IMG/VR virus record: IMGVR_UViG_3300045988_137393 | DNA length: 64,000 nt | Strand: one strand, 5' to 3' | Origin: a virus | Shown: positions 5,804 to 23,994 of the stretch, piece by piece | Position numbering within the stretch: the first letter of the stretch is position 1 | Layout of the letters: every line of letters starts with the position of its first letter | The notes under the pieces: model-generated | The model's database searches: none | Seen by the model: the letters and a program-made list of their open reading frames with translations, nothing else | What the model was told of the DNA's origin: nothing | Program-made: the position numbers and the translations under genes

Positions 5804-5995
5804 TTACACCTCCCACCACTTCTGATTTTCTTCATCGTAAATGTAAGACTTTTTACTATCCATTTCATAATAGGTTGAAGCATTCCCCACGAAAACATCT
5901 TCAAACTTACCAATAGGTTTTTCATCAGTAGAAAGTCCGTATAATTCAAGCCATACACGATTTGGCTTATCTGCATACTTGTTAATTGTGATCAT
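5804..5995 (-). CDS. small hypothetical protein upstream of tail fibre
   Basis: ORF-track ORF trimmed to the ATG with AAAGGATGG RBS 8 nt upstream; stop overlaps RBS of tail-fibre gene. Confidence 0.6.
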   Translation of the reverse strand: MITINKYADKPNRVWLELYGLSTDEKPIGKFEDVFVGNASTYYEMDSKKSYIYDEENQKWWEV

Positions 5996-6043
5996 TTTAT
6001 ATACCATCCTTTCTTTTTATTTAGTCGATTTTTTATATAACAA

Positions 6044-6065
6044 AACCGACTATAGAAAGTCGGTT
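6044..6065 (-). terminator. stem-loop/terminator downstream of tRNA-Pro
   Basis: Perfect 8-bp hairpin AACCGACT/AGTCGGTT with 6-nt loop, T run on minus strand. Confidence 0.5.
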
Positions 6066-6125
6066 AAAAAGTTTTAATATTTACCAATCAGTCGCCAAAC
6101 TGATCATAACTATATAGGGCGATAA

Positions 6126-6199
6126 TATGGATAGCAGGACTTGAACCTACAACGTCTAGTTCCCAAAACTAGTGGACTACCAAATTGTCCTATATCCAT
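6126..6199 (-). tRNA. tRNA-Pro (UGG), A1:U72
   Basis: Hand-folded cloverleaf: acceptor ATGGATA/TATCCAT, D stem GGAC/GTCC, anticodon loop TTTGGGA, T arm GTAGG-TTCAAGT-CCTGC. Confidence 0.8.
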
Positions 6200-6252
6200 G
6201 TAATAATTTTAAAATTTCTTCACATACTAATCAAAAACCCAAGGAGTAACCA

Positions 6253-6921
6253 ATGAACACATCATATAAAACAGCAATCAAATTCAAAGACTTATATATT
6301 CCTGTAAAAATGGTCAAAGTATCTCATAATAACTCAATAGAACTTAATCAGCTCTGCAAAGATTCAAAGGAAAGAGTACGTTATATCAAATTTTGCCCAT
6401 CATGCAATAAAGAAATTCACAATGAAGATATTGTGAAAGGATATAGATATGCAGAAGATAAGTATGTTATTTTGGAACAATATGATATAGAATCAATTAC
6501 ATCAAACCAAGATAGAACACTTTCAATAAAATATTTCTGTAAATCAAAGGAAATATCAGACATACTCATAGATAAATCATATTATTTAATTCCTGAAATG
6601 AATTCAGAAATCGAATATGAGCTTTTTCGCAAAGCTATGACTACGAATAGAGTAGTAGGTATTGCTGAAATTGTATTGGGTACAAAACAAGAATTAGTTG
6701 CGTTATTTGCCAATAAGAATTGTATTATTGCAACCATTTTATTTTATGAGAATGAGATTAACGAATTGCCGATTATCATGAAACACAAAATAGATAAACA
6801 ACAACTCGAAAATCTCAAACAAGATATTATAGATAATACAAAAGATTTTAATTGGAATTCACATTATGATAAATATCAACTCAAACTAAGAGAATTAATA
6901 TTTGAAAAAATTCCAAAATGA
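6253..6921 (+). CDS. ku: Ku-family DNA end-binding protein
   Basis: 222 aa; N-terminus YKTAIKFKDLYIPVKMVKV..ELNQLCKD..ERVRYIKFCPSCNKEI..EDIVKGYRY..DKYVIL follows the bacterial Ku (YkoV/Mt-Ku) core pattern; AAGGAG RBS. Confidence 0.8.
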   Translation: MNTSYKTAIKFKDLYIPVKMVKVSHNNSIELNQLCKDSKERVRYIKFCPSCNKEIHNEDIVKGYRYAEDKYVILEQYDIESITSNQDRTLSIKYFCKSKEISDILIDKSYYLIPEMNSEIEYELFRKAMTTNRVVGIAEIVLGTKQELVALFANKNCIIATILFYENEINELPIIMKHKIDKQQLENLKQDIIDNTKDFNWNSHYDKYQLKLRELIFEKIPK

Positions 6922-7111
6922 TAACGCCTTTCTCATTCCATCCTCGAATGGCGAGCTTTCATCTAAACTGCATAGGACGTATCCTATTGTTACAACAGTA
7001 CCAGTCCGAAGACCGCAAAGGGCATAGGGCGGTAGTAAGTGTTGAGCTTACACGCCTAAGTTTCGTATACATCCAAAAAATAGGTTTTTACATCAGGTTT
7101 ACCGCACGAAA
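6922..7111 (-). ncRNA. structured ~190-nt RNA leader immediately 5' of tRNA-Glu
   Basis: GC-richer than flanks; on minus strand two UNCG-closed hairpins (GGUC-UUCG-GACU; AUAGGA-UACG-UCCUAU) and a long GGCG..CGCC helix; only a spurious plus-strand ORF. Confidence 0.35.
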
Positions 7112-7182
7112 TAGGGCATAACGGACTCGAACCGATACTCATGGAATGAAAATCCATTGTCTTACCTTTTGACTAATGCCCC
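7112..7182 (-). tRNA. tRNA-Glu (UUC)
   Basis: Cloverleaf: acceptor GGGGCAT/ATGCCCT, anticodon arm ATGGA-TTTTCAT-TCCAT, T loop TTCGAGT (one U.U in T stem). Confidence 0.75.
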
Positions 7183-7216
7183 ATATTTAGGGTGGAAAAG
7201 TACCACCCATTATTTT

Positions 7217-7690
7217 TTACAGAGTATATTCTGTAGTTCCTTCAAAAGTATTATTCAATGCACGAATTTCAGCCAATTTCTCAGTAACAGCTTCCTTAAC
7301 TTTTGTAGCAAATAATACACACTGAGCCTGTGCATACAGTTCCTTCTTATCAAGAACAGTATTTAATACTGTATCAGGGTATTTTGTTACATCTCTTTCA
7401 AAATGAAATGCTAAATCTTCATTGATAAGTTTTCTCTCATTTGTTACATCCGTAATCTCCAATTCAACAATAGTAGAATCGTCTTTTGGATCTGTTGTTA
7501 CTTCTGGAACGCCATTATTAAGCTTGATGTTTCCCTTGAACTGAATTTTGCTATACTCGATATACTTATTGTAATTTGCAAGTAATTCTTTTTCCTGCTC
7601 ACTTGTCAAATCAGCAGTGCCAAGACTTGTAACCGTAATGTCTACACTTGCAATATCATTTTCTACATTAAATTTCTGATCTAATTTCAT
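7217..7690 (-). CDS. hypothetical protein
   Basis: 157-aa ORF, ATGA start/stop overlap with upstream ORF, GAGGGG RBS; no motif recognised. Confidence 0.7.
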   Translation of the reverse strand: MKLDQKFNVENDIASVDITVTSLGTADLTSEQEKELLANYNKYIEYSKIQFKGNIKLNNGVPEVTTDPKDDSTIVELEITDVTNERKLINEDLAFHFERDVTKYPDTVLNTVLDKKELYAQAQCVLFATKVKEAVTEKLAEIRALNNTFEGTTEYTL

Positions 7691-7980
7691 GAATTTGTCC
7701 CCTCGCTTTCGTTTGCAATTATTTGGTTATATGCGTCTTTGAAACTGATTACTAAATCCCTTAAAGTCTCTTTATCAATAGTACAGTCCAAATTGCTCAT
7801 ATCAATATTTGGATTTGATACCGTAAACTCCAATGTATTTCCATTTGGCGCAAATAAAACTTCCACAGATTCATTAAGCAGAAGAGTAATAGAATCAATT
7901 TTATTTCCATTATTCGATGTTACTCGTTTTACTTGCCCAACTTTTAATCTATCATTTTCAATAGATAATCTACTTGCCAT
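7687..7980 (-). CDS. hypothetical protein
   Basis: ORF-track ORF 7687..8088 trimmed to MASRL start (AAAGGAG RBS at 7990s); the longer version runs through tRNA-Met. Confidence 0.7.
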   Translation of the reverse strand: MASRLSIENDRLKVGQVKRVTSNNGNKIDSITLLLNESVEVLFAPNGNTLEFTVSNPNIDMSNLDCTIDKETLRDLVISFKDAYNQIIANESEGTNS

Positions 7981-8031
7981 TATATATACACTCCTTTCTT
8001 TTATTTTTAGTTTTCCTTTTAATCGTTGAGT

Positions 8032-8103
8032 TGCGGAAACAGGACTCGAACCTGCATTCTCTTGGTTATGAGCCAAGTGAGCTTCCATTGCTCGTCATTC
8101 CGC
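8032..8103 (-). tRNA. tRNA-Met/Ile2-type (CAU)
   Basis: Acceptor GCGGAA(T)/(T)TTCCGC, anticodon arm CTTGG-CTCATAA-CCAAG, T arm GCAGG-TTCGAGT-CCTGT; D stem is shifted by one nt relative to canonical numbering. Confidence 0.75.
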
Positions 8104-9026
8104 TATGATAATAGGAGAGGAGCGACCTCCCCATATTATATGTAGATTGGTAAGATCTACTGCCGATTGATTACCAGTCAACCGACAAAGAGAATATTGA
8201 AAATTCTCTGACATGTAATATTATCCAGTTGCAACGCCACATCGGAATTAAACCGAAATCTTCTCTGATATGAGACGCATGTTCAATCATGCTGATGACC
8301 TGGATAATATATTATTCTCCACATATTTTCAGTCTTCGGAGCAAAGACCTCTTGATAAGGTTTAATGACTCTTATCCGTCAATTAAGATTCTCATTAACG
8401 TAGAGAGGCACGAACATCTTCTCATTTCTGAAGGCTGAGATAAACCGATGATCCTAGATGTCGGTAGGAAAGAAATAGGACTTACAATACTACATGAATA
8501 ACAAATGCCAAGTTGATTTTTTCATATTTCAAATGAAACCGTGATGCTGTATCAACCCAATAACGGTTCACTATTTTGTGATTCTTATTGACTAACAGAA
8601 TCACTTTACCTACAACGATTAGAGGTGTTCCACACTTAACGGTGGTGGATTACCATATTTTTTAGTTGTCTACTAAGGCAAGATCTCTCCATAACACCGC
8701 CAATGAGCAGTAAGCAGTGGGAAGTTTTAGACCGTTCCAAAGTCAATAATTTCGCAAACCGACCTTTATATTTATGTCGCATATCGGTCAGCGACAGCTC
8801 ATTTGTAAAAGTCCGTCAACGGATTAACAGACCGCCCTCACTTCTTATGGATGTGAGCAGCTTTGTTATATTTTATTATTCTCTACATTGTCGTCACCTC
8901 TCGGCTCAAATATCACGTTGCTATGCTTTCTTGTTTAAATTAAATTGTTGATGTTGGACGAAAGCTTCATCGGTATCCTCAGTTTCTTCACGAATTATAT
9001 ACATCTGAATGGTTTCGGAAGGATTA
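8104..9026 (-). ncRNA. candidate large structured RNA (a), ~0.9 kb, 5' of tRNA-Met
   Basis: No minus-strand ORF >=60 aa; many perfect helices (8218-8228/8300-8310; 8189-8195/8203-8209; 8578-8585/8597-8604; 8537-8542/8563-8568); helix 8114-8120/8126-8132 is complete only on the minus strand (G.U). Confidence 0.45.
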
Positions 9027-9980
9027 TTAAATTTCAACACTATCTTTTAACTTTCTTACCTTAGAAGTGTCTATTTTAATGTAATATTTTTTTGTGACAT
9101 CCGTTCCAGAATGATTTAACATTGTAGACACATCTTCCAAGCTAACACCTTCATTTTTAAGCAAAGTGGCATAACTATGACGAAAATCATGAGGATGTAA
9201 TGTTGGAACGCCAATCATATTTCCGATCTTTTTACACCAGTCATTTAATGTACCACTTTGAATCGGCTTATTTTCATTGGTGTATGGAGTAATAAATATT
9301 CTTCCGTGGTCATCAATGTTATTATCTTTTCTGTATTGAATTAGTTTCTCAAGATACCCCTTAGTTTCTCTACTAAAACTTAACTCAACAATTTTCCCCT
9401 CTTTTTCAAGCACATTACTACAAATTCTTTCATCAAAATCTACTTGTTCCCATTTTAAACTGCCAATAGCAGTAACTCTTGCCATAGTAGTTAAAGAAAG
9501 AAAAGCATATGCCTGTAACTGAATATCTCCATATTCTTCAAGTTTTTCACGCATTAACTGCACTTGATCTTTTGTAAGATATGTTTGCACAGCGATAGGT
9601 TGACCATTTTTAGGTCTATCAATAAATTCAGTAGGAGATTCTACAATCAATTTTTTCTTACGAAGGAATTTGTAAAATGCAGAAACAGAAGACATAACTC
9701 TTTTTTGTCTTGCAACATTATTCCCTTGTTGTTTCCTCCAATAATAGTATTCTGTGATATCATCCTCTGTTGCTTCCAATACAGATAAATTAAACTGATT
9801 ATCATACATATAAATAAACCATTGTCTTAAATCTATATTGTACGCATTAATAGTATTAACTGATAAATCACGAATAGACATATCTACTTGATACTTTTGA
9901 AACAGTTTTAATGTTTCAGGATTTATATGTTCAAGTTTATCTTCATCATACATTACAATTCTTTTGCTTCGTTCTGCCAT
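9027..9980 (-). CDS. tyrosine recombinase/integrase (XerC/D-like)
   Basis: 317 aa; N-terminal SAM-like core-binding region, C-terminal HPHDFRHSYATLL ... LNHSGTDVTKKYY (H-x-x-R and catalytic Y); start moved to MAERS with GGAAG RBS. Confidence 0.85.
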   Translation of the reverse strand: MAERSKRIVMYDEDKLEHINPETLKLFQKYQVDMSIRDLSVNTINAYNIDLRQWFIYMYDNQFNLSVLEATEDDITEYYYWRKQQGNNVARQKRVMSSVSAFYKFLRKKKLIVESPTEFIDRPKNGQPIAVQTYLTKDQVQLMREKLEEYGDIQLQAYAFLSLTTMARVTAIGSLKWEQVDFDERICSNVLEKEGKIVELSFSRETKGYLEKLIQYRKDNNIDDHGRIFITPYTNENKPIQSGTLNDWCKKIGNMIGVPTLHPHDFRHSYATLLKNEGVSLEDVSTMLNHSGTDVTKKYYIKIDTSKVRKLKDSVEI

Positions 9981-13575: not shown

Positions 13576-13887
13576 TTAAAAATTCCCACCAGAACGCTTT
13601 CTGCCAGGATTAAAATACATTTGTTTCGTTTTATTCTGTTTTACTTTGATATATTCACGAATATTTCTAATATAATTTTCATCATAACTCAAACGAATAT
13701 GTGATTCTAAATAATAACATCCACAACGAGTTGGAATTTTATTTGATAACACATTGTCTATAAGTCTATATGACGGATTAAGATTCGAGAGATGAGTATG
13801 CTTTTCTGTATCTTCTTGTCTACAGATACGATAGCCATTTTCAGTCTTGTCAATATAAAAACCTTTATATTCAATTCGATTTTTCAT
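13576..13887 (-). CDS. hypothetical protein
   Basis: ORF-track ORF, ATG at 13887 chosen over upstream TTG. Confidence 0.6.
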   Translation of the reverse strand: MKNRIEYKGFYIDKTENGYRICRQEDTEKHTHLSNLNPSYRLIDNVLSNKIPTRCGCYYLESHIRLSYDENYIRNIREYIKVKQNKTKQMYFNPGRKRSGGNF

Positions 13888-13896
13888 AGGCAAAAC

Positions 13897-14061
13897 CTAC
13901 TTAACATACTTATCTTCGATGTAACGCTTTCCACCACAAGTCTTGTAATATCCAATATGTTCGCCTCTGCGATCTACATATCCTCGTCTTGTGTTTCTAA
14001 TTATACCTTCGAATAATAATTTTTCAATTTCATTTTTTGAAATGTACTTAATAATTTTCAC
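13897..14061 (-). CDS. possible small protein (54 aa, GTG start)
   Basis: Open frame VKIIKYISKNEIEKLL...GGKRYIEDKYVK between two genes; weak RBS, below ORF-track cutoff. Confidence 0.3.
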   Translation of the reverse strand: MKIIKYISKNEIEKLLFEGIIRNTRRGYVDRRGEHIGYYKTCGGKRYIEDKYVK

Positions 14062-14099
14062 TTCTTTCTTGATTTATTTCCTACAAAGTAGGATAGTAG

Positions 14100-14174
14100 T
14101 TGGAAATGTAGGATTTGAACCCACGACCTCCTGAACCCAAATCAGGCGTTCTAACCAAACTGAACTAATTCCCA
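14100..14174 (-). tRNA. tRNA-Pro (UGG), U1:A72, second copy
   Basis: Acceptor TGGGAAT/ATTTCCA, D arm TAGTTCAGTTTGGTTAGAAC, anticodon arm CCTGA-TTTGGGT-TCAGG, T arm GTGGG-TTCAAAT-CCTAC. Confidence 0.8.
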
Positions 14175-15008
14175 AAATAAAAAATCCCATACCGAAGTAT
14201 GAGATCCTTACTTAATATGAGCTGAGATATTTGACTCAATACACTAACACTTACTGTGGTTGGACACAGTTTATCACACAAGCGATTAGCTTGTAGTTAG
14301 CAACAACACCGATTTTGACATAATCGGCAAACTCTTACCACAAAGTATTATAGATTTTCTTTCTGCACATTCTTCCTTGCGAGATTCATAGGTTGCAGCC
14401 TATTAGAGTTGCACGTACTTGTACTTTCTCATATAACACCTTGCGAGTGCTATATGTCACCATATTACAGGTGAATAAGTTGTTTTTCTCTTTGCGGTCG
14501 CACACACTTTTGCTGTTTTGTAATTTTCTTTTAAATATTATTTACCTAAAATAATTTGATTTCTTTCAAAAGTATGTACTTATTATGGACGATGAGGTGT
14601 ACATTTGATCATCCGTACCTTTTGAGTACAGCCCAATCATCACCATCCTGCTCGGATTGCGATCTCCTTACTTTTTGATTCCATCCCTGTTTTTCAACTT
14701 AAGAGATATTACCAAAATCCTACCAGCGGTTATACTTGCGGTATTCCCACCAATAGTACACAAATCATACCCACATTTCTGTGTTACTACAGTGCCTATT
14801 TCAAGACACCCACCAATCAACCATATTCGCCAACAGTTGTCCTTGAATAGAAGGTTGGGCGTAGATTTTATGTGTTTTCCGTTAAACTGTATTTCACAGT
14901 CGCAGCCTTATAATACGATAAGAACCACTTTATACATGTCGCCATGCTTATTTTTGAGATTTAACATCTCCTGATCCGAAACCAACCAGTCCTACAAAAG
15001 TAGAAAAG
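14175..15008 (-). ncRNA. candidate large structured RNA (b), ~0.83 kb between tRNA-Asn and tRNA-Pro
   Basis: No minus-strand ORF >=60 aa; local hairpins (e.g. CCGATT..AATCGG 14319-14337); CCTTGCGAG (minus: CUC-GCAA-GG, GNRA-type) at 14375 and 14439. Confidence 0.4.
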
Positions 15009-15081
15009 CTCTCCCAGTAAGACTCGAACTTACGACTTTCGCATTAACAGTGCGATGCTCTACCAGCTGAGCTATAAGAGA
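15009..15081 (-). tRNA. tRNA-Asn (GUU)
   Basis: Canonical: acceptor TCTCTTA/TGGGAGA, TAGCTCAGCTGGTAGAGC D arm, anticodon loop CTGTTAA, T loop TTCGAGT. Confidence 0.85.
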
Positions 15082-15756
15082 TTAAGAATTGTCAGTGACC
15101 ATACCACAGGAACTGTAGCACAGCCACCGATCTATAAGAAGAGGAGTACAATATGAATATGTACCAATCTTAGAAATGAACTTTAGAATTGTTCAGAACC
15201 GCCAATGAATTAGTAGCGATGGAATCTCTTAGATTTTATCAGTTCCCCAAATAAGCTGATTATCCGTAGGTTTACCAACCTAACATTAAAATTAGCATTT
15301 ATGGCTGCTTGCACCACATACATTGTCTCTATGGACTTTATTGCCTCAGTATGATACGAGATCTAAATCACTGTTCTGAATTTAATTTGTGTTATATTGT
15401 GTCCGTATAGAACGTTGTTCTAATGTCTTTCGACAATTATATATTCTCTGTTTTATCAGCCAAGAAAAGCTGATTTCATTGTGTTAGCCTTTCGGCACAG
15501 CCCTCAATCAAGAGGGCTTTTATTTTGTAGTAAAACACGTGTTGCATACTTTTATTCCGCATTTGCATATAAGCGGAGAGGATAGTTATGTTGGTATTGT
15601 ACGAAGTACACGCAAATTTACACTGTTATACATTGATAAAGCTTCATTGCCCACTTTCTCCTCATAAGTTCACTTAACTACAATCGTTGAAACCGTTGAT
15701 TTTACTAGCTTTTAGCAACACTAAAGCAATTAAGTCTGTACAAAAACTGTGCATTT
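15082..15756 (-). ncRNA. candidate large structured RNA (c), ~0.67 kb between RNAP-like gene and tRNA-Asn
   Basis: ORF-free; GCC-GAAA-GGC hairpin (minus) next to GCCCTC..GAGGGC stem (15508-15527); shares a ~50-nt module starting CCGCCAATGA (15199) with segment (a) (8697). Confidence 0.4.
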
Positions 15757-18366
15757 TTAACAGTTTTTTGAAAAACATTTTAGCAAATTTGATGAATTTA
15801 TACTGTATAATACCTTCATTAACAATGATTTATTTTTATTAAGGACAGAAGATATTGATTTTTGATTTCGAATTGAACCAGGAAGAATTTTAAAACAACG
15901 ATCAATCATCCAAGAAAACAACCCAAGATAATTCTTAGATATTTTAATTGATTTCACTTCATAAATCATGTCATCAAAATCTTTTCTAAGCAATAAATAA
16001 TCATCATTCTCTGCATCATCGTTTATTTCATATAATTTTAATGAATATTTTGCTATAATTTCCTCAACCTTTCTACAAGTACGAATATTACTTTTCATTT
16101 CATATTTAACAAAAAAATGACTCATTGGCAGAGTTGTATCTGTATTATGAAACTTCATTAAATCCAAATCGTATAAGTAATTCATAGGACATTTTAAACT
16201 TTCGTTTATGTATTTTTCATTAAAACCTCTTTTGATTATTTTCCAAAACGAAGGATAAAGATTTGTTTTAATATCCATATCATCTTTTATTCTTTTGATT
16301 TCACCAGTTAAGTCGATGTCGAATCTTCTCTTTGCGTTATCAATAGCGACTTGAGCCAAAACACTTAATATACATACATAGTCAACATACTTTTGGTCAT
16401 CAAAATTACATGCATATGTTTGAGCTATTTGAGCTAAGTTGCTTGATTCGCCAATATCCAACTGAGATTTTGCTAAATTATTGTCAATTCCAGCATAATC
16501 GTCCATTGATTTACCATATATATTTTTCTCTTTTGGAATGTTATTTTTGATGGTAGGATAATTTTGATAGCATTTTCTCGCATGTTCTACAATATCACAT
16601 TGATTTGTTGTATACCCACTATCGGAATCTTGATCACTTCCATTGTTTCTATCCTGAAAATCTGTACCATTCATATTTACTGCAACGCACTGTTTTCCAA
16701 GGTTAAAATATTTTTCAAGATTTTTATGGTATATATTGTGAAGATATGTAAGATTGTTTTTACTATTAAAAGGACTTCTAAAGAAAGCTAGATATTCACC
16801 ACTATTAAATCTTTCAGTGTAACATTGAATTGTATTGCTTTCAGCAAAAAATGTGTCATCATTATCAACGTCAGACTCATTTCCTGTGGCAGCATATAAA
16901 AGCATTGCATATGGAGATCCAACTATTACTAAATTTTCAGCATTTTGAATAATACGTCCACTTTTCATATTTAACACATATCCTTTAATAATAGCTTTTT
17001 TTCTGTCACGAAAATATGAACTCCTTACAAAATCTGGATTTTGATTACACAAAGCAATTAAAACTTCGTAATCATTTGAAAAGTTTTTATTCTTCTCAAG
17101 ATATTTCAAAAACTCAGAATTGTCTTGTTTGAGTTTATTGATATACTCAACACTTTCCTTTACAACATTTGGCATTATTTTTTCATCAAGAGAGTTTACC
17201 ATTTGGTAGCTCATTCTCTGAACTTCTCCAAGTTTACTTTCATGTGCAGTTTTCACAATACCAAACATACAGCCGTTTTCATAAACTCGATCACACCAAT
17301 ATTCATACGACTTATCAAATTTCAACCATTTCATAGCATTGTCAGTTGTGATCAATTCAATATCCTTAACAAAATGTTCTACTCCAAACATATCTTTTAC
17401 AGTAGCAGAATAGTAATTCTCTCCAAAATAGTCTTTGAAAAATTGCTGGATATTTGTGCTAAAAGCTGCCATTTTACAAAAATGATGTCGTAATAATATA
17501 TATCCATTTCCCCAACTTGGGAAGATACTAGAATCAATTAACGCCTGTCCGTCAAACATCGTGTTCTTCAACTCGTAATTATCAATGTGTTTTGCATAGC
17601 AATGTTTGTTTTCATCTGTCTCAATACTAACTACTTTAGTAAAAAATGATCTATCCACATCTTTTAATATTAAAATATTCTTGGGATTAATTTTGACTTT
17701 ACCAACGACGGCACTGGATATGAGAGGAGCATAAGCACTAATTTCGACTGTAGGAGAATTCCTTTTAGGAAGTCGAATGCCCATATACAAAAATTTAATT
17801 GCTTTTTTATAAAGGCGATCACATATAAACATACACGAGCCTTTTTTTGCTTTTCCTGTACTTCTGTAAAGCATTTTGTAATGAATAGTTTCTCGTTTTA
17901 TGATATCACCGTTTTTCTTTCTGGTAATATATTCAACATTTACACCTTCATTATAAAACAATGTTCTTATTTCTTCTTTTGTGTGTTTGTGATATTTGTC
18001 TTTGTTCTTATTTGCTTCCTGAAATAATTGTGAAAGTTTTTTACGTTTGTTCCTTTTCTTTTGAATCTGACTATTATAGCCATATGATTTTGCAAGCTTA
18101 TATTCAGTTCTCGCATCTCTTGCGACTTTTTGTAAATGTGAAATCTCTTCATCGTAAGAACGAGAACCAAAATTAAATTCCAAACAAATTAAATCTCGTG
18201 TAGATTCTTCTTTCCATACCTTTAATCCATTTTCATTTAAAAAGTCACTAAAAAGGCTATTGGTAAACATCGCATCTTTATACTCATAATGATCTCTGAC
18301 ACCATTATTATACTCATAAAGGGTGCTTGCTTCAATATTCTTTATTTTAATTCCATATTCACTCAT
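15757..18366 (-). CDS. YonO/RdRP-like single-subunit two-barrel RNA polymerase (candidate)
   Basis: 869 aa; LYRSTGKAKKGSCMF and FFRSPFNSKNN...(30 aa)...NGSDQDSDSG resemble the basic-loop and R-x-P...DxDxD metal-site signatures of YonO/cellular RdRP family; size and nearby HU gene recall SPbeta yonN-yonO. Confidence 0.55.
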   Translation of the reverse strand: MSEYGIKIKNIEASTLYEYNNGVRDHYEYKDAMFTNSLFSDFLNENGLKVWKEESTRDLICLEFNFGSRSYDEEISHLQKVARDARTEYKLAKSYGYNSQIQKKRNKRKKLSQLFQEANKNKDKYHKHTKEEIRTLFYNEGVNVEYITRKKNGDIIKRETIHYKMLYRSTGKAKKGSCMFICDRLYKKAIKFLYMGIRLPKRNSPTVEISAYAPLISSAVVGKVKINPKNILILKDVDRSFFTKVVSIETDENKHCYAKHIDNYELKNTMFDGQALIDSSIFPSWGNGYILLRHHFCKMAAFSTNIQQFFKDYFGENYYSATVKDMFGVEHFVKDIELITTDNAMKWLKFDKSYEYWCDRVYENGCMFGIVKTAHESKLGEVQRMSYQMVNSLDEKIMPNVVKESVEYINKLKQDNSEFLKYLEKNKNFSNDYEVLIALCNQNPDFVRSSYFRDRKKAIIKGYVLNMKSGRIIQNAENLVIVGSPYAMLLYAATGNESDVDNDDTFFAESNTIQCYTERFNSGEYLAFFRSPFNSKNNLTYLHNIYHKNLEKYFNLGKQCVAVNMNGTDFQDRNNGSDQDSDSGYTTNQCDIVEHARKCYQNYPTIKNNIPKEKNIYGKSMDDYAGIDNNLAKSQLDIGESSNLAQIAQTYACNFDDQKYVDYVCILSVLAQVAIDNAKRRFDIDLTGEIKRIKDDMDIKTNLYPSFWKIIKRGFNEKYINESLKCPMNYLYDLDLMKFHNTDTTLPMSHFFVKYEMKSNIRTCRKVEEIIAKYSLKLYEINDDAENDDYLLLRKDFDDMIYEVKSIKISKNYLGLFSWMIDRCFKILPGSIRNQKSISSVLNKNKSLLMKVLYSINSSNLLKCFSKNC

Positions 18367-19881: not shown

Positions 19882-20688
19882 TTACGACTTATTGCCGTTT
19901 TTGATTTCTCCAAATGAGTCTACATTATAGATTTCCAACATCTTAGCAATAGCCCATTCAATTTCTTGCTCATATCCTTCTTTATTAAGTACATATACAT
20001 TTGGTACATTTTGTGGTGGTTTCTTTGGATTAGGTTGAACACTACCAACTTCTTTTTTGATTAGAAGTGGTTCTTTGTCGCCAATAGAAGATGTGAGATA
20101 TTGAATACATTGATTAATGGTATCTTTTGACATAGAGAGTTCTTTTGACATAGATTCTATACTTCGCCAAAAAGCTTCTGGTTTAGTTTCAGGGTTATAC
20201 ATAGTTTCTTCATTATCTTTATTTTTGGGACGAATGAAAATATACGAATTAATATAAAGAAAAGCCATTAATATATTCTCTTTATTAATACTAGATTCAT
20301 TCATCATAATAAAATCAAGCTGAGAAGATGTGATTTTTGAGAACTTATCAACAGCATCAAAATTTTCAGGAATGATCTTAATTTCAATTCCAGTATCATA
20401 TCCAAGCGTGTCAAGATCCTGTTGAACTTCAATCATTTTGTTGTTAATCATATATTCCAGTACATCAAGAATTTCTTGAACAGCTTTCGGTCTGCGTTTG
20501 TGTGTCTTGTATCCGTAGAAATTTAGAACTTTTCTAAGAGTAATCCAACTATAGTCTTCGTAAGACCTATATTTATCAATAAGGATGTAAGTAATATAGA
20601 ATTTACGACTAACTCCATATTTAGTTTTAATGTTTCCTTGAATATAGTTATTTGGAAAACGAGTAAAGTATTCTGTTCTCTGTTGCAA
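19882..20688 (-). CDS. hypothetical protein, first gene of leftward arm
   Basis: 268 aa, TTG start 9 nt after GGAGG; no motif recognised. Confidence 0.65.
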   Translation of the reverse strand: MQQRTEYFTRFPNNYIQGNIKTKYGVSRKFYITYILIDKYRSYEDYSWITLRKVLNFYGYKTHKRRPKAVQEILDVLEYMINNKMIEVQQDLDTLGYDTGIEIKIIPENFDAVDKFSKITSSQLDFIMMNESSINKENILMAFLYINSYIFIRPKNKDNEETMYNPETKPEAFWRSIESMSKELSMSKDTINQCIQYLTSSIGDKEPLLIKKEVGSVQPNPKKPPQNVPNVYVLNKEGYEQEIEWAIAKMLEIYNVDSFGEIKNGNKS

Positions 20689-20719
20689 TAAAAATTCCTC
20701 CTTTATAGGTGATATTTAT

Positions 20720-20739
20720 TTATTCTCCATCTGAAATTA
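20720..20739. repeat. 20-nt direct repeat copy 1 (TTATTCTCCATCTGAAATTA)
   Basis: Exact match to 21011-21030. Confidence 0.9.
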
Positions 20740-21002
20740 AGTGGAAGAGAACCTTGCGAGCGTTCAGTAAAGTAGGTCTGAACCCCCACCTGTTTGTTTT
20801 ATTTTTGAAATTGGTAGGGGGTGAAACCCACTTTGCCGAACTGAAAGAAGATATATAACATTATTAATAAGATAGACTATTACGCTTGTATTTCGCTTAC
20901 GCTTCATACAAGCTCTTTAATTTTTTGTTTGATTGTTATTGGTTGATTTGGGTACATGGTGTTTTGGATTAATGGTTTCATTTGAGTACATGTGAGATCT
21001 AC

Positions 21003-21413
21003 CTATAGTGTTATTCTCCATCTGAAATTATAATTCTGTTTCAAATTAACGTACTTCTCTGTGAAGATATTATCTACAAAAAATACTGGTAGCTTATCAT
21101 GATACATTTTATAAATTTCTTCACCTGATAAACTTATCCAAAAATTACTACCTATTTGTCTTTGTTTCTGCAATGTTTCGATTTCTTCCTGATATTTACT
21201 ATTTTTAATTATTCCTCCAATTTTTCCACAGATAGTACAGTAACTGCATAATGATGTATGAATACGTTCTTTTTATACGTTACTTTTAAAATTCCATTTA
21301 TATTGAATCAGACATTCTTCATAATGATGTTTGTGCTTTGATTTGCGGTTGCTCTTTGAGATATTACTTTCTGTTGACTTGAGATATTTTGGTATTTCGT
21401 TTTCATGTATCAT
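21003..21413 (-). pseudogene. 137-codon reading frame interrupted by one in-frame TAA (21275-21273)
   Basis: ATG 21413 with AAAGGAGG RBS; 46 codons, TAA, then 89 more codons in the same frame with no internal start until late (..HKHHYEEC..*..CSYCTICGK..). Confidence 0.5.
21011..21030. repeat. 20-nt direct repeat copy 2
   Basis: Exact match to 20720-20739; lies inside the 3' end of the interrupted ORF. Confidence 0.9.
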
Positions 21414-21524
21414 ATTTAATTCCTCCTTTGATGTATTATTCTCTCTTTGTGAAAATGTGATTATTGCACTATTGTTCTTTTGGTAGTAAAATAAATATAT
21501 ATAATTTTAAAGGAGGAATTGTTT

Positions 21525-22421
21525 ATGAAAAAATTGAAGAGATTAAAGAGGATATTTAGTTTTGTGTTATGCATTGTAATGGTTATTACCGTTATTCAAT
21601 TAGTACCACAAAATGTTTATGCTGCCAATAAAGTTAAATTGAACTATACAAAGCTTACTTTGTATGTTGGCGAAGTAAAGAATTTGAAAATACATGAAGG
21701 AAAAACGGAAATATATTCTGCTAGATGGTCTTCTTCTAATAAAAATGTTGTGAAAGTTACTAATTATGGACATATAGAAGCATTAAAACATGGTTCTGTT
21801 AAAATAATCGCCAAATATAATAATAAAAATTATGTTTGTAAGGTTACTGTCAAGGATGCTTTAAAAGATCATGTAAGTTATGAGTTGATTGATATTCCTG
21901 AAAATGCATATTCGGGACAGTATAATAAAATGATTAAAATTGTAAACAATAATGATGTTACTGTTAATGTTAATATTTCTATTAAACAATACGATAAGGA
22001 TGGATTTTATATTAGACAAAACACAAATGATTATATAGTAAATAAAAATACTTATATTATTGCATTAATGGAATATAATAATGGACGTGTAATAGATTTT
22101 AATAATCCAATACAATATGACGAACAGTTAAAGATATCTTTGAGAAGTGTAAATAGGGCAAATTCTATTGATATAAAATATAATATTTCTGATCAATATA
22201 TTGATAATGGTTGGATATATAGAGATATTGTTTTTACTTCACCTATTACTAAATCTGCAAAATATTCTGCGTTATGTTATAATAGTAGTGGAGAATTAAC
22301 GAGAATAGTTACCGATTATGTTTATGTTCCTGCTAATGAAAAAGTAAAAAAGAAAGATGGATATAATTTGAATTTTAAAGATAAATATGATATTCAAAAA
22401 ATAAATATATATTTTTATTGA
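21525..22421 (+). CDS. secreted protein with bacterial Ig-like (Big_2) domain
   Basis: AGGAGG RBS; signal peptide KKLKRLKRIFSFVLCIVMVITVIQLVPQNVYA; Big_2-like KLTLYVGEVKNLK...WSSSNKNVVKVTNYGHIEALKHGSVKIIA. Confidence 0.75.
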   Translation: MKKLKRLKRIFSFVLCIVMVITVIQLVPQNVYAANKVKLNYTKLTLYVGEVKNLKIHEGKTEIYSARWSSSNKNVVKVTNYGHIEALKHGSVKIIAKYNNKNYVCKVTVKDALKDHVSYELIDIPENAYSGQYNKMIKIVNNNDVTVNVNISIKQYDKDGFYIRQNTNDYIVNKNTYIIALMEYNNGRVIDFNNPIQYDEQLKISLRSVNRANSIDIKYNISDQYIDNGWIYRDIVFTSPITKSAKYSALCYNSSGELTRIVTDYVYVPANEKVKKKDGYNLNFKDKYDIQKINIYFY

Positions 22422-23906: not shown

Positions 23907-23994
23907 AGTCGCATTGAGCAGGCTCAGTCTACGCTTTTTTAAGCGGTTGTGAATTAAGCACATTTGAGAAGTGGTTCGATTCCACTTGCGACTT
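23907..23994 (+). ncRNA. tRNA-like element 1 (acceptor + canonical T arm, no 7-nt anticodon loop)
   Basis: Acceptor AGTCGCA/TGCGACT, T arm AGTGG-TTCGATT-CCACT, long extra arm TGTG..CACA; the anticodon-position hairpin CGCTT-TTTT-AAGCG has a 4-nt loop; D arm truncated. Confidence 0.5.

What the first reader, a model, noticed from the sequence alone, without database searches (positions are those of the whole stretch)
14175..15008. ~0.83-kb non-coding segment (b) exactly filling the gap between tRNA-Asn and tRNA-Pro
Two well-formed tRNAs (15009-15081 and 14100-14174) are separated by 834 nt. The transcribed strand has no ORF of 60 aa or more, and the only plus-strand ORF (14657-14974) lacks an RBS. 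The segment contains hairpins (14319-14337). It also carries two copies of CCTTGCGAG (14375, 14439), with a third at 20752. On the minus strand these read CUC-GCAA-GG, a GNRA-type tetraloop unit typical of large folded RNAs. Phage tRNA arrays normally have spacers of tens of nt, so a spacer this long is unexplained.
Basis: seen in the sequence. Interest (0 to 1): 0.7.

Follow-up and report, generated by a model that had tools for sequence, protein, structure and literature searches.

The report
GOLLD giant RNA in phage tRNA array
The 834-base "empty" gap between two phage tRNA genes encodes a GOLLD RNA, a known class of giant phage RNA that self-assembles into hollow cages. This copy belongs to a divergent gut-phage branch that standard annotation misses.

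Summary
tRNA-Asn (15009-15081) and tRNA-Pro (14100-14174), both on the minus strand, are 834 nt apart. No credible ORF lies between them, and CCTTGCGAG occurs 3 times against 0.07 expected.

The gap is one RNA gene of the GOLLD class (Rfam RF02032). Its 3' half (14648-14219) matches the whole 416-position model at 104.5 bits, E=7e-28. That is below Rfam's cut-off of 150 bits, so both whole-window scans missed it. When Rfam's GOLLD pairs are projected onto 39 relatives from IMG/VR, 92% of cells pair and 47 of 92 pairs show compensatory changes. The 5' half (15007-14649) is also conserved and structured: 79 pairs, 98% paired, 58 compensatory. It is specific to this branch.

In relatives the element abuts a tRNA on both sides, whatever that tRNA's identity. 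I infer excision by RNase Z and RNase P, followed by self-assembly into a nanocage as in the solved GOLLD structures. What the cage does is unknown.

Verdict: a real feature and a new member of a known kind, from an abundant branch found in phages of gut Lachnospiraceae. Two features are branch-specific: a terminator-like 3' hairpin, and a conserved linker island complementary to the GOLLD core strand.

The parts
15436..15463 (-). Sigma-70-like promoter candidate (TTGGCT, 16 nt, TATAAT) about 350 nt upstream of tRNA-Asn. It is the likely start of the leader-tRNA-GOLLD-tRNA transcript.
   Evidence: Consensus scan gives 10 of 12 matches. The sequence block is identical in nearly all relatives aligned (A2). 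Function is inferred, not shown.
15082..15435 (-). Conserved non-coding leader. Its last ~130 nt are almost invariant and include a perfect 18-bp hairpin at 15130-15092.
   Evidence: nhmmer conservation in relatives and alignment A2. The hairpin is 99.1% paired in 13 sequences, with mostly one-sided G.U changes. No Rfam match.
15008..15081 (-). tRNA-Asn (GUU) with no encoded CCA. Its 3' end defines the 5' end of the GOLLD RNA.
   Evidence: ARAGORN; Rfam tRNA at 68.7 bits; the trailer reads CUUUUC.
14990..15005 (-). Small 5'-terminal hairpin (UCUAC-UUUU-GUAGGA), 3-4 nt after the tRNA.
   Evidence: Sequence. The stem covaries in relatives, for example CCCAU/AUGGG and CCUAU/AUAGG. The same kind of hairpin follows the downstream tRNA.
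14649..15007 (-). GOLLD 5' domain, in a branch-specific version. It has about 15 helices, including a long-range stem (14873-14864 with 14766-14758), a CGCAA-loop hairpin (14755-14721), a three-tier arm capped by a GAAA loop (14717-14673) and a GCAA-containing hairpin (14667-14654).
   Evidence: RNAalifold on A1. 79 pairs, 98.3% of cells paired, 58 pairs with double changes against 39.6+-2.1 in shuffles and 11-17 in slid controls. A covariance model of its 3' third finds no copy in 65 canonical GOLLD loci.
14219..14648 (-). GOLLD 3' domain, the part modelled by Rfam RF02032.
   Evidence: cmscan gives 104.5 bits, E=6.8e-28, model positions 1-416 of 416. 87 of 92 mapped pairs are canonical in the window. 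On 39 relatives 92.0% of cells pair and 47 pairs show double changes.
14587..14648 (-). First long hairpin of the 3' domain, with the conserved A-rich loop CUCAAAAGG.
   Evidence: Helices 1-2 (99.4% and 91.6% paired); the loop bases are invariant in A1.
14515..14586 (-). Variable A/U-rich linker: 72-73 nt here (85% A+U) and 56-119 nt in relatives. It contains the branch-specific conserved island ACAUACUUUUG at about 14577-14567.
   Evidence: Linker lengths and composition, measured over alignment columns 522-664. The island is complementary to the core strand. It corresponds to the disordered interior linker of solved GOLLD (PMC12286853).
14500..14514 (-). Conserved single-stranded GOLLD core strand AGCAAAAGUGUGUGC.
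   Evidence: Aligned to the Rfam consensus AAAGCAAAAGUCU; invariant in A1; pattern match at 14475-14514.
14430..14456 (-). Hairpin carrying the first CUCGCAAGG unit (14447-14439), with a CGCAA loop.
   Evidence: Helix 5 (94.9% paired, 4 pairs with double changes); repeat position.
14374..14384 (-). Hairpin carrying the second CUCGCAAGG unit (14383-14375), with a CGCAA loop.
   Evidence: RNAalifold pairs 797-799 with 805-807, showing compensatory UA/CG changes; repeat position.
14175..14209 (-). Branch-specific 3' extension: a hairpin (stem 14204-14185, UUCG loop) followed by UUUUUUAUUU. It looks like an intrinsic terminator and ends exactly at the first base of tRNA-Pro.
   Evidence: Terminator scan. 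The stem covaries in relatives, columns 994-1014. Canonical GOLLD locus L003 has only 8 nt between the model's end and the tRNA.
14099..14174 (-). tRNA-Pro (UGG). Its 5' end, the RNase P site, defines the latest possible 3' end of the GOLLD RNA.
   Evidence: ARAGORN; Rfam tRNA at 65.6 bits.
14080..14094 (-). Post-tRNA hairpin UCCUAC-UUU-GUAGGA, followed by the RBS and GTG start of the 54-aa ORF 13897-14061.
   Evidence: covarying in relatives; ORF.

Best explanation
[quoted passage not shown] The RNA is about 833 nt and runs from 15007 to 14175 on the minus strand of a phage that probably infects gut Lachnospiraceae.

**Shown here**
- The 3' 430 nt fit the whole GOLLD covariance model.
- Those GOLLD base pairs are kept by compensatory changes in relatives.
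- The 5' 360 nt form a second conserved, covarying domain.
- In relatives the element fills the interval between two tRNA genes to within a few nucleotides, whichever tRNAs they are.

**Inferred**
- The RNA is transcribed with the tRNAs from a conserved promoter about 350 nt upstream.
- RNase Z cuts after the CCA-less tRNA-Asn and creates the 5' end.
- The 3' end comes from termination at the hairpin/U-tract, from RNase P cleavage at tRNA-Pro one to a few nucleotides further on, or from both.
- The two terminal hairpins protect the ends.

**Inferred by homology to the solved structures** (env-38 14-mer, S. agalactiae 12-mer)
- The 3' domains of many copies form rings through kissing loops and A-minor contacts.
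- The 5' domains cap the rings, giving a hollow RNA-only cage with the A/U-rich linker inside.

The biological role of the cage during infection is not known for any GOLLD. A link to tRNA or translation is the leading published guess.
For: - **Model match.** Full-length match to RF02032, E=6.8e-28. Five relatives tested score the same way at 87-101 bits, while canonical GOLLDs retrieved by the same motif score 203-305 bits.
- **3' domain pairs.** Rfam's pairs hold on 39 relatives: 92.0% of cells paired and 47 of 92 pairs with double changes. Shuffles give 26.3+-2.4 (0 of 500 reach the observed value). Slid controls give 5-11 pairs and 32-46% paired.
- **5' domain pairs.** 79 pairs, 98.3% paired, 58 with double changes.
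- **De novo fold.** RNAalifold finds 184 pairs, 120 of them with compensatory changes. The single-sequence fold has z = -4.7.
- **Anatomy.** Total length is 833 nt against 833 nt for env-38. The two-domain layout, variable A/U-rich linker, and phage and tRNA-array context all match published GOLLD descriptions.
- **tRNA junctions.** An upstream tRNA lies within 5 nt in 33 of 46 relatives, and a downstream tRNA in 41 of 45. Two upstream and seven downstream tRNA identities occur, counting one class that ARAGORN could not assign.
- **Non-coding.** No ORF is conserved: the longest ORF per relative ranges from 48 to 139 aa. No Pfam match.
- **Phage context.** PHROG matches in neighbouring genes and similarity to Enterocloster and gut phage scaffolds.
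Against: - The Rfam score (104.5 bits) is below the family's curated cut-off of 150 bits, so by Rfam's own rule it would not be annotated.
- Two helices of the model fit poorly in this branch: helix 6 at 57.9% paired and helix 9 at 64.6%.
- A profile HMM of this branch does not reach canonical GOLLDs. The link therefore rests on the covariance model, the shared motifs and the shared anatomy.
- Nothing here shows transcription, the RNA's ends, or multimer formation.
- A terminator-like hairpin directly in front of tRNA-Pro sits uneasily with simple co-transcription of that tRNA.
Confidence: 0.88

Rival explanations
1. It is a different, so far undescribed large structured RNA that shares only some motifs (CGCAA hairpins, an A-rich strand) with GOLLD. 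The sub-threshold Rfam hit would then be convergence or a distant common module rather than family membership.
For: The score is below Rfam's gathering cut-off. The branch's sequence profile does not reach canonical GOLLDs. The 5' domain has no detectable counterpart in 65 canonical loci. Helices 6 and 9 fit poorly.
Against: The match covers all 416 model positions in order, at E=7e-28. 87 of 92 mapped pairs are canonical in the window, and 12 of 14 model helices are over 80% paired with compensatory changes in relatives. Size, two-domain layout, interior variable linker, phage location and tRNA adjacency all match the family. A variable 5' domain is itself a described GOLLD trait. Loci L017, L041, L069 and L070 carry a related 3' domain with a different 5' part.
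Confidence: 0.06
2. It is a passive processing spacer or leader. On this view the sequence matters only in cis, to set transcription termination and RNase P/Z processing of the flanking tRNAs, and has no function as a free RNA.
For: Exact butt-joints to tRNAs on both sides. A terminator-like hairpin directly before tRNA-Pro. Small hairpins after each tRNA.
Against: Processing signals would need tens of nucleotides. Here about 170 base pairs are kept by compensatory change over 830 nt, including long-range helices. Other tRNAs of the same window have no such element. Related GOLLDs are stable, expressed RNAs.
Confidence: 0.03
3. It is decayed coding sequence or degenerate tRNA pseudogenes. These are the reader's own refutation cases.
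For: A 105-aa plus-strand ORF exists at 14657-14974.
Against: The ORF has no RBS and no Pfam match. No ORF is conserved across relatives. Substitutions follow base-pairing, not codon, patterns. ARAGORN and the Rfam tRNA model find nothing inside the gap.
Confidence: 0.01

Closest known systems
GOLLD RNA (Rfam RF02032; first described by Weinberg et al. 2009 according to my own knowledge; structures env-38 14-mer PDB 9MEE, S. agalactiae 12-mer PDB 9L0R)
   Same: Length is about 830 nt. The 3' domain matches the family model end to end, with covariation. It has the conserved AGCAAAAGU strand, CGCAA-loop hairpins, an A-rich first hairpin loop and the UCUCAG 3' loop. It has a variable A/U-rich linker and a separate 5' domain. 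It is located in a phage, inside a tRNA array.
   Different: It scores 87-105 bits, against 203-305 bits for canonical members and a cut-off of 150. The 5' domain is not detectably related to those of other GOLLD loci. It has an extra terminator-like hairpin between the last model position and the tRNA. The linker holds a conserved island complementary to the core strand; CUUUUG is present in 86% of 49 branch loci and 0% of 68 other loci. No tRNA is embedded in the linker.
ROOL RNA (the other phage-encoded cage-forming RNA found near tRNA islands)
   Same: It is a large ornate phage RNA, found near tRNAs, that forms an RNA-only cage with an interior disordered linker.
   Different: There is no ROOL match in the permissive Rfam search of this region. 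ROOL's 5' and 3' parts are intertwined rather than forming two separate domains.
tRNA-punctuated transcripts (RNase P / RNase Z excision of RNAs lying between tRNAs, as in mitochondrial and bacterial rRNA-tRNA operons; own knowledge)
   Same: The RNA is bounded to the nucleotide by a tRNA 3' end and a tRNA 5' end, across many different tRNA identities.
   Different: The excised product here is a giant self-assembling non-coding RNA, not an mRNA or rRNA. Processing itself is not shown.

Membership tests
GOLLD RNA (RF02032) | Score at or above Rfam's curated gathering cut-off (150 bits) against the family covariance model | tested here: not met
   104.5 bits. Five relatives tested score 87-101 bits. 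The hit is nevertheless full-length (positions 1-416 of 416) at E=6.8e-28. The cut-off reflects the seed's composition, not a structural criterion.
GOLLD RNA (RF02032) | Conserved 3'-domain secondary structure, supported by covariation | tested here: met
   92 model pairs mapped; 92.0% of cells paired in 39 sequences; 47 pairs with double changes; 0 of 500 shuffles reach this; slid controls give 5-11 pairs. Helices 6 and 9 are weak (58% and 65% paired).
GOLLD RNA (RF02032) | Conserved primary-sequence motifs of the 3' domain (AAAGCAAAAGU strand, CUCGCAAGG hairpin, UCAAAAG loop, UCUCAG 3' loop) | tested here: met
   All are aligned to the model consensus and are invariant across the branch in A1. 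The motif pair AGCAAAAGT...CTCGCAAGG retrieves both canonical and branch GOLLDs.
GOLLD RNA (RF02032) | Two-domain organisation: a less conserved 5' domain of about 300-420 nt and a conserved 3' domain, about 700-830+ nt in total | tested here: met
   360-nt structured 5' domain plus 473-nt 3' part gives 833 nt. The 5' domain diverges faster than the 3' domain in most of the 48 distinct relatives compared.
GOLLD RNA (RF02032) | Variable, unstructured linker after the first hairpin of the 3' domain | tested here: met
   73 nt and 85% A+U in the window, 56-119 nt in relatives, with many indels. This is matched to the unpaired stretch of the model.
GOLLD RNA (RF02032) | Genomic setting in phages or prophages, within or next to tRNA arrays | tested here: met
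   Nine tRNAs in the window. PHROG hits in neighbouring genes. At least 118 IMG/VR viral contigs carry the branch motif. tRNAs abut both ends.
GOLLD RNA (RF02032) | Self-assembly into a dihedral RNA-only cage (12-mer or 14-mer) through defined kissing-loop and A-minor bridges | not testable with these tools
   Needs in vitro transcription plus mass photometry or cryo-EM. The sequences of the solved chains (9MEE, 9L0R) were not available, so contact nucleotides could not be mapped.
GOLLD RNA (RF02032) | Expression as a discrete stable RNA that rises during phage lytic growth | not testable with these tools
   No transcriptome data. There is only a conserved promoter-like site and a terminator-like site.
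ROOL RNA | Match to the Rfam ROOL covariance model | tested here: not met
   No ROOL hit up to E=10 in 13800-15800, nor in the whole window.
tRNA or tRNA pseudogene | Cloverleaf detectable by ARAGORN or the Rfam tRNA model inside the gap | tested here: not met
   None between 14175 and 15008.

The most novel reading that the evidence does not exclude
This gut-phage branch may be a distinct architectural subtype of GOLLD. It has its own 5' cap domain. Inside the normally disordered linker it carries a conserved island (ACAUACUUUUG) that can form an 11-13-bp helix with the universal core strand CAAAAGUGUGU. In the solved env-38 cage, that strand makes an intermolecular kissing loop. The island could therefore act as an assembly switch (masking the bridge until processing or folding is complete), or as a new bridge inside the cage. 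Either would give a different subunit number or a regulated open and closed cage. Together with the exact tRNA-GOLLD-tRNA junctions and a leaky terminator in front of the downstream tRNA, this would tie cage assembly to tRNA processing.
Probability: 0.2. Interest if true: 0.65.

Novelty: new member of a known kind. Interest (0 to 1): 0.4.

Why it matters
GOLLD is one of very few natural RNAs known to build a protein-free cage, and its function is still unknown.

**Annotation.** Rfam-threshold annotation systematically misses a large, abundant GOLLD branch in human-gut phages. At least 118 viral contigs carry it, and it also occurs in Lachnospiraceae genomes, including the isolate Eubacterium segne BX4. 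Long "spacers" in phage tRNA arrays should be checked with relaxed covariance-model searches.

**Biology.** The branch supplies a well-sampled natural sequence series for asking which contacts of the cage are conserved. It also shows a clean tRNA-bounded processing architecture.

**Experiments.** It points to possible culturable host systems for a first functional test.

Tried and rejected
- **Whole-window Rfam scans** at the gathering threshold and in E-value mode returned only tRNAs. The GOLLD hit appears only when a 2-kb stretch is searched, so the speed filters drop it.
- **GenBank phage searches** found only the tRNAs (blastn on the segment) or nothing (megablast on 15 kb). There is no close deposited phage.
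- **The gut scaffold MT837385** carries the closest homologue of the neighbouring 869-aa gene. It has its tRNAs at the contig end and no room for a GOLLD.
- **Other long gaps** next to tRNAs (5900-9100) and the region holding the third CCTTGCGAG copy (20300-21800) have no Rfam family match. The branch profiles hit the window only once.
- **An off-by-one error** in my first branch-specific pattern wasted one genome scan and one viral scan. The corrected pattern was used.
- **A covariance model** of the 3' third of the 5' domain (R1) found nothing in 65 canonical GOLLD loci. It gave only one clear and one weak hit, in loci L015 and L031, which lie outside the set of full-length relatives. I could not show homology of the 5' domain to canonical ones. 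The model has a low effective sequence number and default filters were used.
- **The linker-core helix** is conserved, but both strands are nearly invariant, so covariation support is weak.
- **The 18-bp leader hairpin** shows only one-sided changes.
- **Papers not held.** Weinberg 2009 and Morgado 2020 are not in the library. Their content is cited only through papers that are held, or marked as my own knowledge.
- **The 869-aa neighbour** is annotated "RNA-dependent RNA polymerase" in a 25%-identical Enterocloster phage protein. Pfam finds nothing and PHROGs gives "unknown function". I do not build on a phage-polymerase idea.

Full report
**Observation**

ARAGORN and the Rfam tRNA model agree on the two flanking genes. 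tRNA-Asn(GUU) lies at 15008/9-15081 and tRNA-Pro(UGG) at 14099/100-14174, both on the minus strand. This leaves 14175-15008, which is 834 nt. On the transcribed strand the longest ORFs are 38-50 aa. The only long plus-strand ORF (14657-14974, TTG start, 105 aa) has no Shine-Dalgarno sequence in front of it (read) and no Pfam match. CCTTGCGAG occurs at 14375, 14439 and 20752, that is 3 copies against 0.07 expected. The small corrections are a hairpin that really spans 14328-14308, a loop that is CGCAA rather than a C-G-closed GNRA tetraloop, and a third repeat copy that is unrelated.

**What it is**

A permissive Rfam search restricted to 13800-15800 gives a full-length match of 14648-14219 (minus strand) to GOLLD, RF02032. 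The match covers model positions 1-416 of 416 at 104.5 bits and E=6.8e-28. Both CUCGCAAGG units fall in GOLLD hairpins. The strand AGCAAAAGUGU aligns to the family's conserved AAAGCAAAAGUCU. The A/U-rich stretch aligns to the model's unpaired linker. The score is below Rfam's curated cut-off of 150 bits, and both whole-window scans missed the hit entirely. That explains why the segment looked unexplained.

**Relatives**

GenBank phages hold no nucleotide relative. A motif scan of IMG/VR (AGCAAAAGT, 45-75 nt, CTCGCAAGG) returned at least 120 loci. With nhmmer, 49 of them match both the 5' 360 nt and the 3' 474 nt of the window segment, in most cases over essentially the full length. Identity to the window ranges from 99.5% down to about 59%. 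Rfam scoring of a sample shows two populations: canonical GOLLDs at 203-305 bits, and members of this branch at 87-101 bits, all full-length. A corrected branch-specific pattern finds at least 118 IMG/VR contigs, mostly 80-180 kb. In species-representative genomes it finds Eubacterium segne BX4 and MAGs labelled Ruminococcus sp. and Lachnospira sp. A variant with a one-base insertion occurs in a Kineothrix MAG. The neighbouring genes have PHROG matches and resemble Enterocloster and gut phage scaffolds. The window is therefore a large gut phage whose host is probably a member of the Lachnospiraceae.

**Structure tests**

I transferred Rfam's 92 GOLLD pairs through the window sequence onto a 39-sequence alignment (A1) and counted them.
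- 92.0% of cells are paired, and 47 pairs carry changes on both sides.
- Shuffles give 26.3+-2.4 such pairs, and 0 of 500 reach the observed value.
- Controls with the partner slid by 1-3 columns give 5-11 pairs and 32-46% pairing.
- Two of the 14 helices fit poorly (58% and 65% paired).

RNAalifold run de novo on A1 finds 184 pairs, 120 of them with compensatory changes, and recovers the same 3' helices.

The 5' half (15007-14649) is at least as well supported. It has 79 pairs in 15 helices, 98.3% paired, with 58 pairs changed on both sides against 39.6+-2.1 in shuffles and 11-17 in slid controls. This structure was derived from the same alignment, which inflates the contrast with the slid controls. 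The compensatory counts are still far beyond the shuffles.

The single sequence folds with z = -4.7. No ORF is conserved among relatives.

**How far it departs from canonical GOLLD**

A profile HMM of the branch reaches only about 56 of the 120 loci and none of the canonical ones. A few loci (L017, L041, L069, L070) share the 3' domain but not the 5' domain. A covariance model of the last 109 nt of the 5' domain finds nothing in 65 canonical loci. It gives only one clear and one weak hit, in L015 and L031. This fits the published description of GOLLD as a universally conserved 3' region plus a variable 5' region that form separate domains in 3D.

Two features seem specific to the branch.
- **A 3' extension.** It has a 44-nt extension (14218-14175). 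Its last 35 nt (14209-14175) form a covarying hairpin followed by a U-tract. It scores as an intrinsic terminator and ends exactly at tRNA-Pro.
- **A conserved island in the linker.** Within the otherwise hypervariable linker, ACAUACUUUUG is complementary over 11-13 bp to the core strand CAAAAGUGUGU(GC). CUUUUG is found within 130 nt upstream of that strand in 86% of 49 branch loci and 0% of 68 other loci. Duplex energy has z = -4.2 against -1.6. Covariation support is weak because both sides are nearly invariant.

**Junctions and processing**

Among relatives with enough flank, 33 of 46 have a tRNA (Asn or Met) within 5 nt of the 5' end. 41 of 45 have a tRNA (Pro, Lys, Thr, Asn, Ile, Phe or an unassigned one) within 5 nt of the 3' end. 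The junction is constant while the tRNA identity changes.

tRNA-Asn encodes no CCA. In Firmicutes this makes it an RNase Z substrate (my own knowledge). A small covarying hairpin sits 3-5 nt after both flanking tRNAs. A conserved promoter-like site lies about 350 nt upstream (TTGGCT, 16 nt, TATAAT; 15463-15436). It is followed by a conserved leader that contains a perfect 18-bp hairpin 10 nt before tRNA-Asn.

My inference is as follows. One transcript carries leader, tRNA-Asn, GOLLD, tRNA-Pro and the downstream small ORFs. RNase Z and RNase P release the GOLLD RNA. The terminator-like hairpin either ends most transcripts there or protects the 3' end after RNase P cleavage. None of this is shown experimentally.

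**Mechanism by homology**

Solved GOLLDs assemble without protein into dihedral cages. Env-38 (833 nt) forms a 14-mer of about 380 Å. S. agalactiae GOLLD (700 nt) forms a 12-mer, and its 3' domain alone forms mainly 10-mers. The 3' domains form rings, the 5' domains form caps, and the variable linker is disordered inside. Published ideas on function involve encapsulation, tRNAs or ribosomes. None is established. I expect this RNA to form a cage too. Its different 5' domain makes the subunit number uncertain.

**Rivals**

- An unrelated large RNA sharing only motifs with GOLLD is unlikely. The match is full-length and ordered, 12 of 14 helices are confirmed by covariation, and the anatomy is the same.
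- A purely cis-acting processing spacer cannot explain about 170 covarying pairs over 830 nt.
- Decayed genes or tRNAs are excluded.

**Verdict**

The feature is real and is explained. It is a new member, from a divergent and abundant gut-phage branch, of the known GOLLD class. It is of moderate interest for three reasons: it exposes an annotation blind spot, it shows a clean tRNA-bounded architecture, and it carries branch-specific elements that might alter cage assembly.

Noticed in passing
window 15082-15756 (minus strand), especially 15083-15485: The 675-nt ORF-free stretch upstream of tRNA-Asn is conserved in many relatives. It has a promoter-like block overlapping a hairpin (15463-15436). 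Its last ~130 nt are nearly invariant and include a perfect 18-bp hairpin (15130-15092), which could be an RNase III site. There is no Rfam match. It may be a second functional RNA element, or the operon leader.
   Followed up: partly
window 14990-15005 and 14080-14094 (minus strand); relatives: A 5-6-bp hairpin sits 3-5 nt after each tRNA that flanks the GOLLD, and it covaries in relatives. After the downstream tRNA it directly precedes the RBS and GTG start of a 54-aa ORF. It may be a 5'-end stabiliser for whatever RNA RNase Z releases. The other six tRNAs of the window lack it.
   Followed up: partly
window about 14567-14577 paired with about 14500-14512 (minus strand): A conserved island in the variable linker is complementary to the GOLLD core strand. 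CUUUUG is present in 86% of 49 branch loci and in none of 68 other GOLLD loci. It can alternatively pair with the UCAAAAG hairpin loop (about 14620-14626).
   Followed up: partly
window 20689-21518: An 830-nt intergenic gap between divergent genes holds the third CCTTGCGAG copy (20752) and a long palindrome at about 20762-20841. The palindrome draws weak microRNA-model noise on both strands. There is no GOLLD or other Rfam family here.
   Followed up: partly
window 6200-7110 and 8105-9026: These are two further ~0.9-kb stretches next to minus-strand tRNAs (Pro, Glu, Met). Neither has a convincing minus-strand ORF, and a permissive scan gives no Rfam match. A 222-aa plus-strand ORF (6253-6921) lies in the first.
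   Followed up: partly
window 23907-23994 (plus strand): ARAGORN reports an 88-nt tRNA-like gene with an undetermined two-base anticodon (tt). It could be an odd tRNA, an intron-containing tRNA, or a false positive.
   Followed up: no
window 15757-18366 (minus strand): The 869-aa ORF next to the locus belongs to phrog_8308 (unknown function) and has no Pfam domain. It is 25% identical to an Enterocloster phage PMBT24 protein annotated as RNA-dependent RNA polymerase, so it might be a phage-encoded polymerase.
   Followed up: partly
locus L014 1923-2362, tRNA at 2206-2276: A canonical GOLLD (203 bits) in an IMG/VR contig carries a tRNA inside its linker and sits in an array of more than 10 tRNAs. 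This is an example of the published embedded-tRNA variant, which the window's copy lacks.
   Followed up: no
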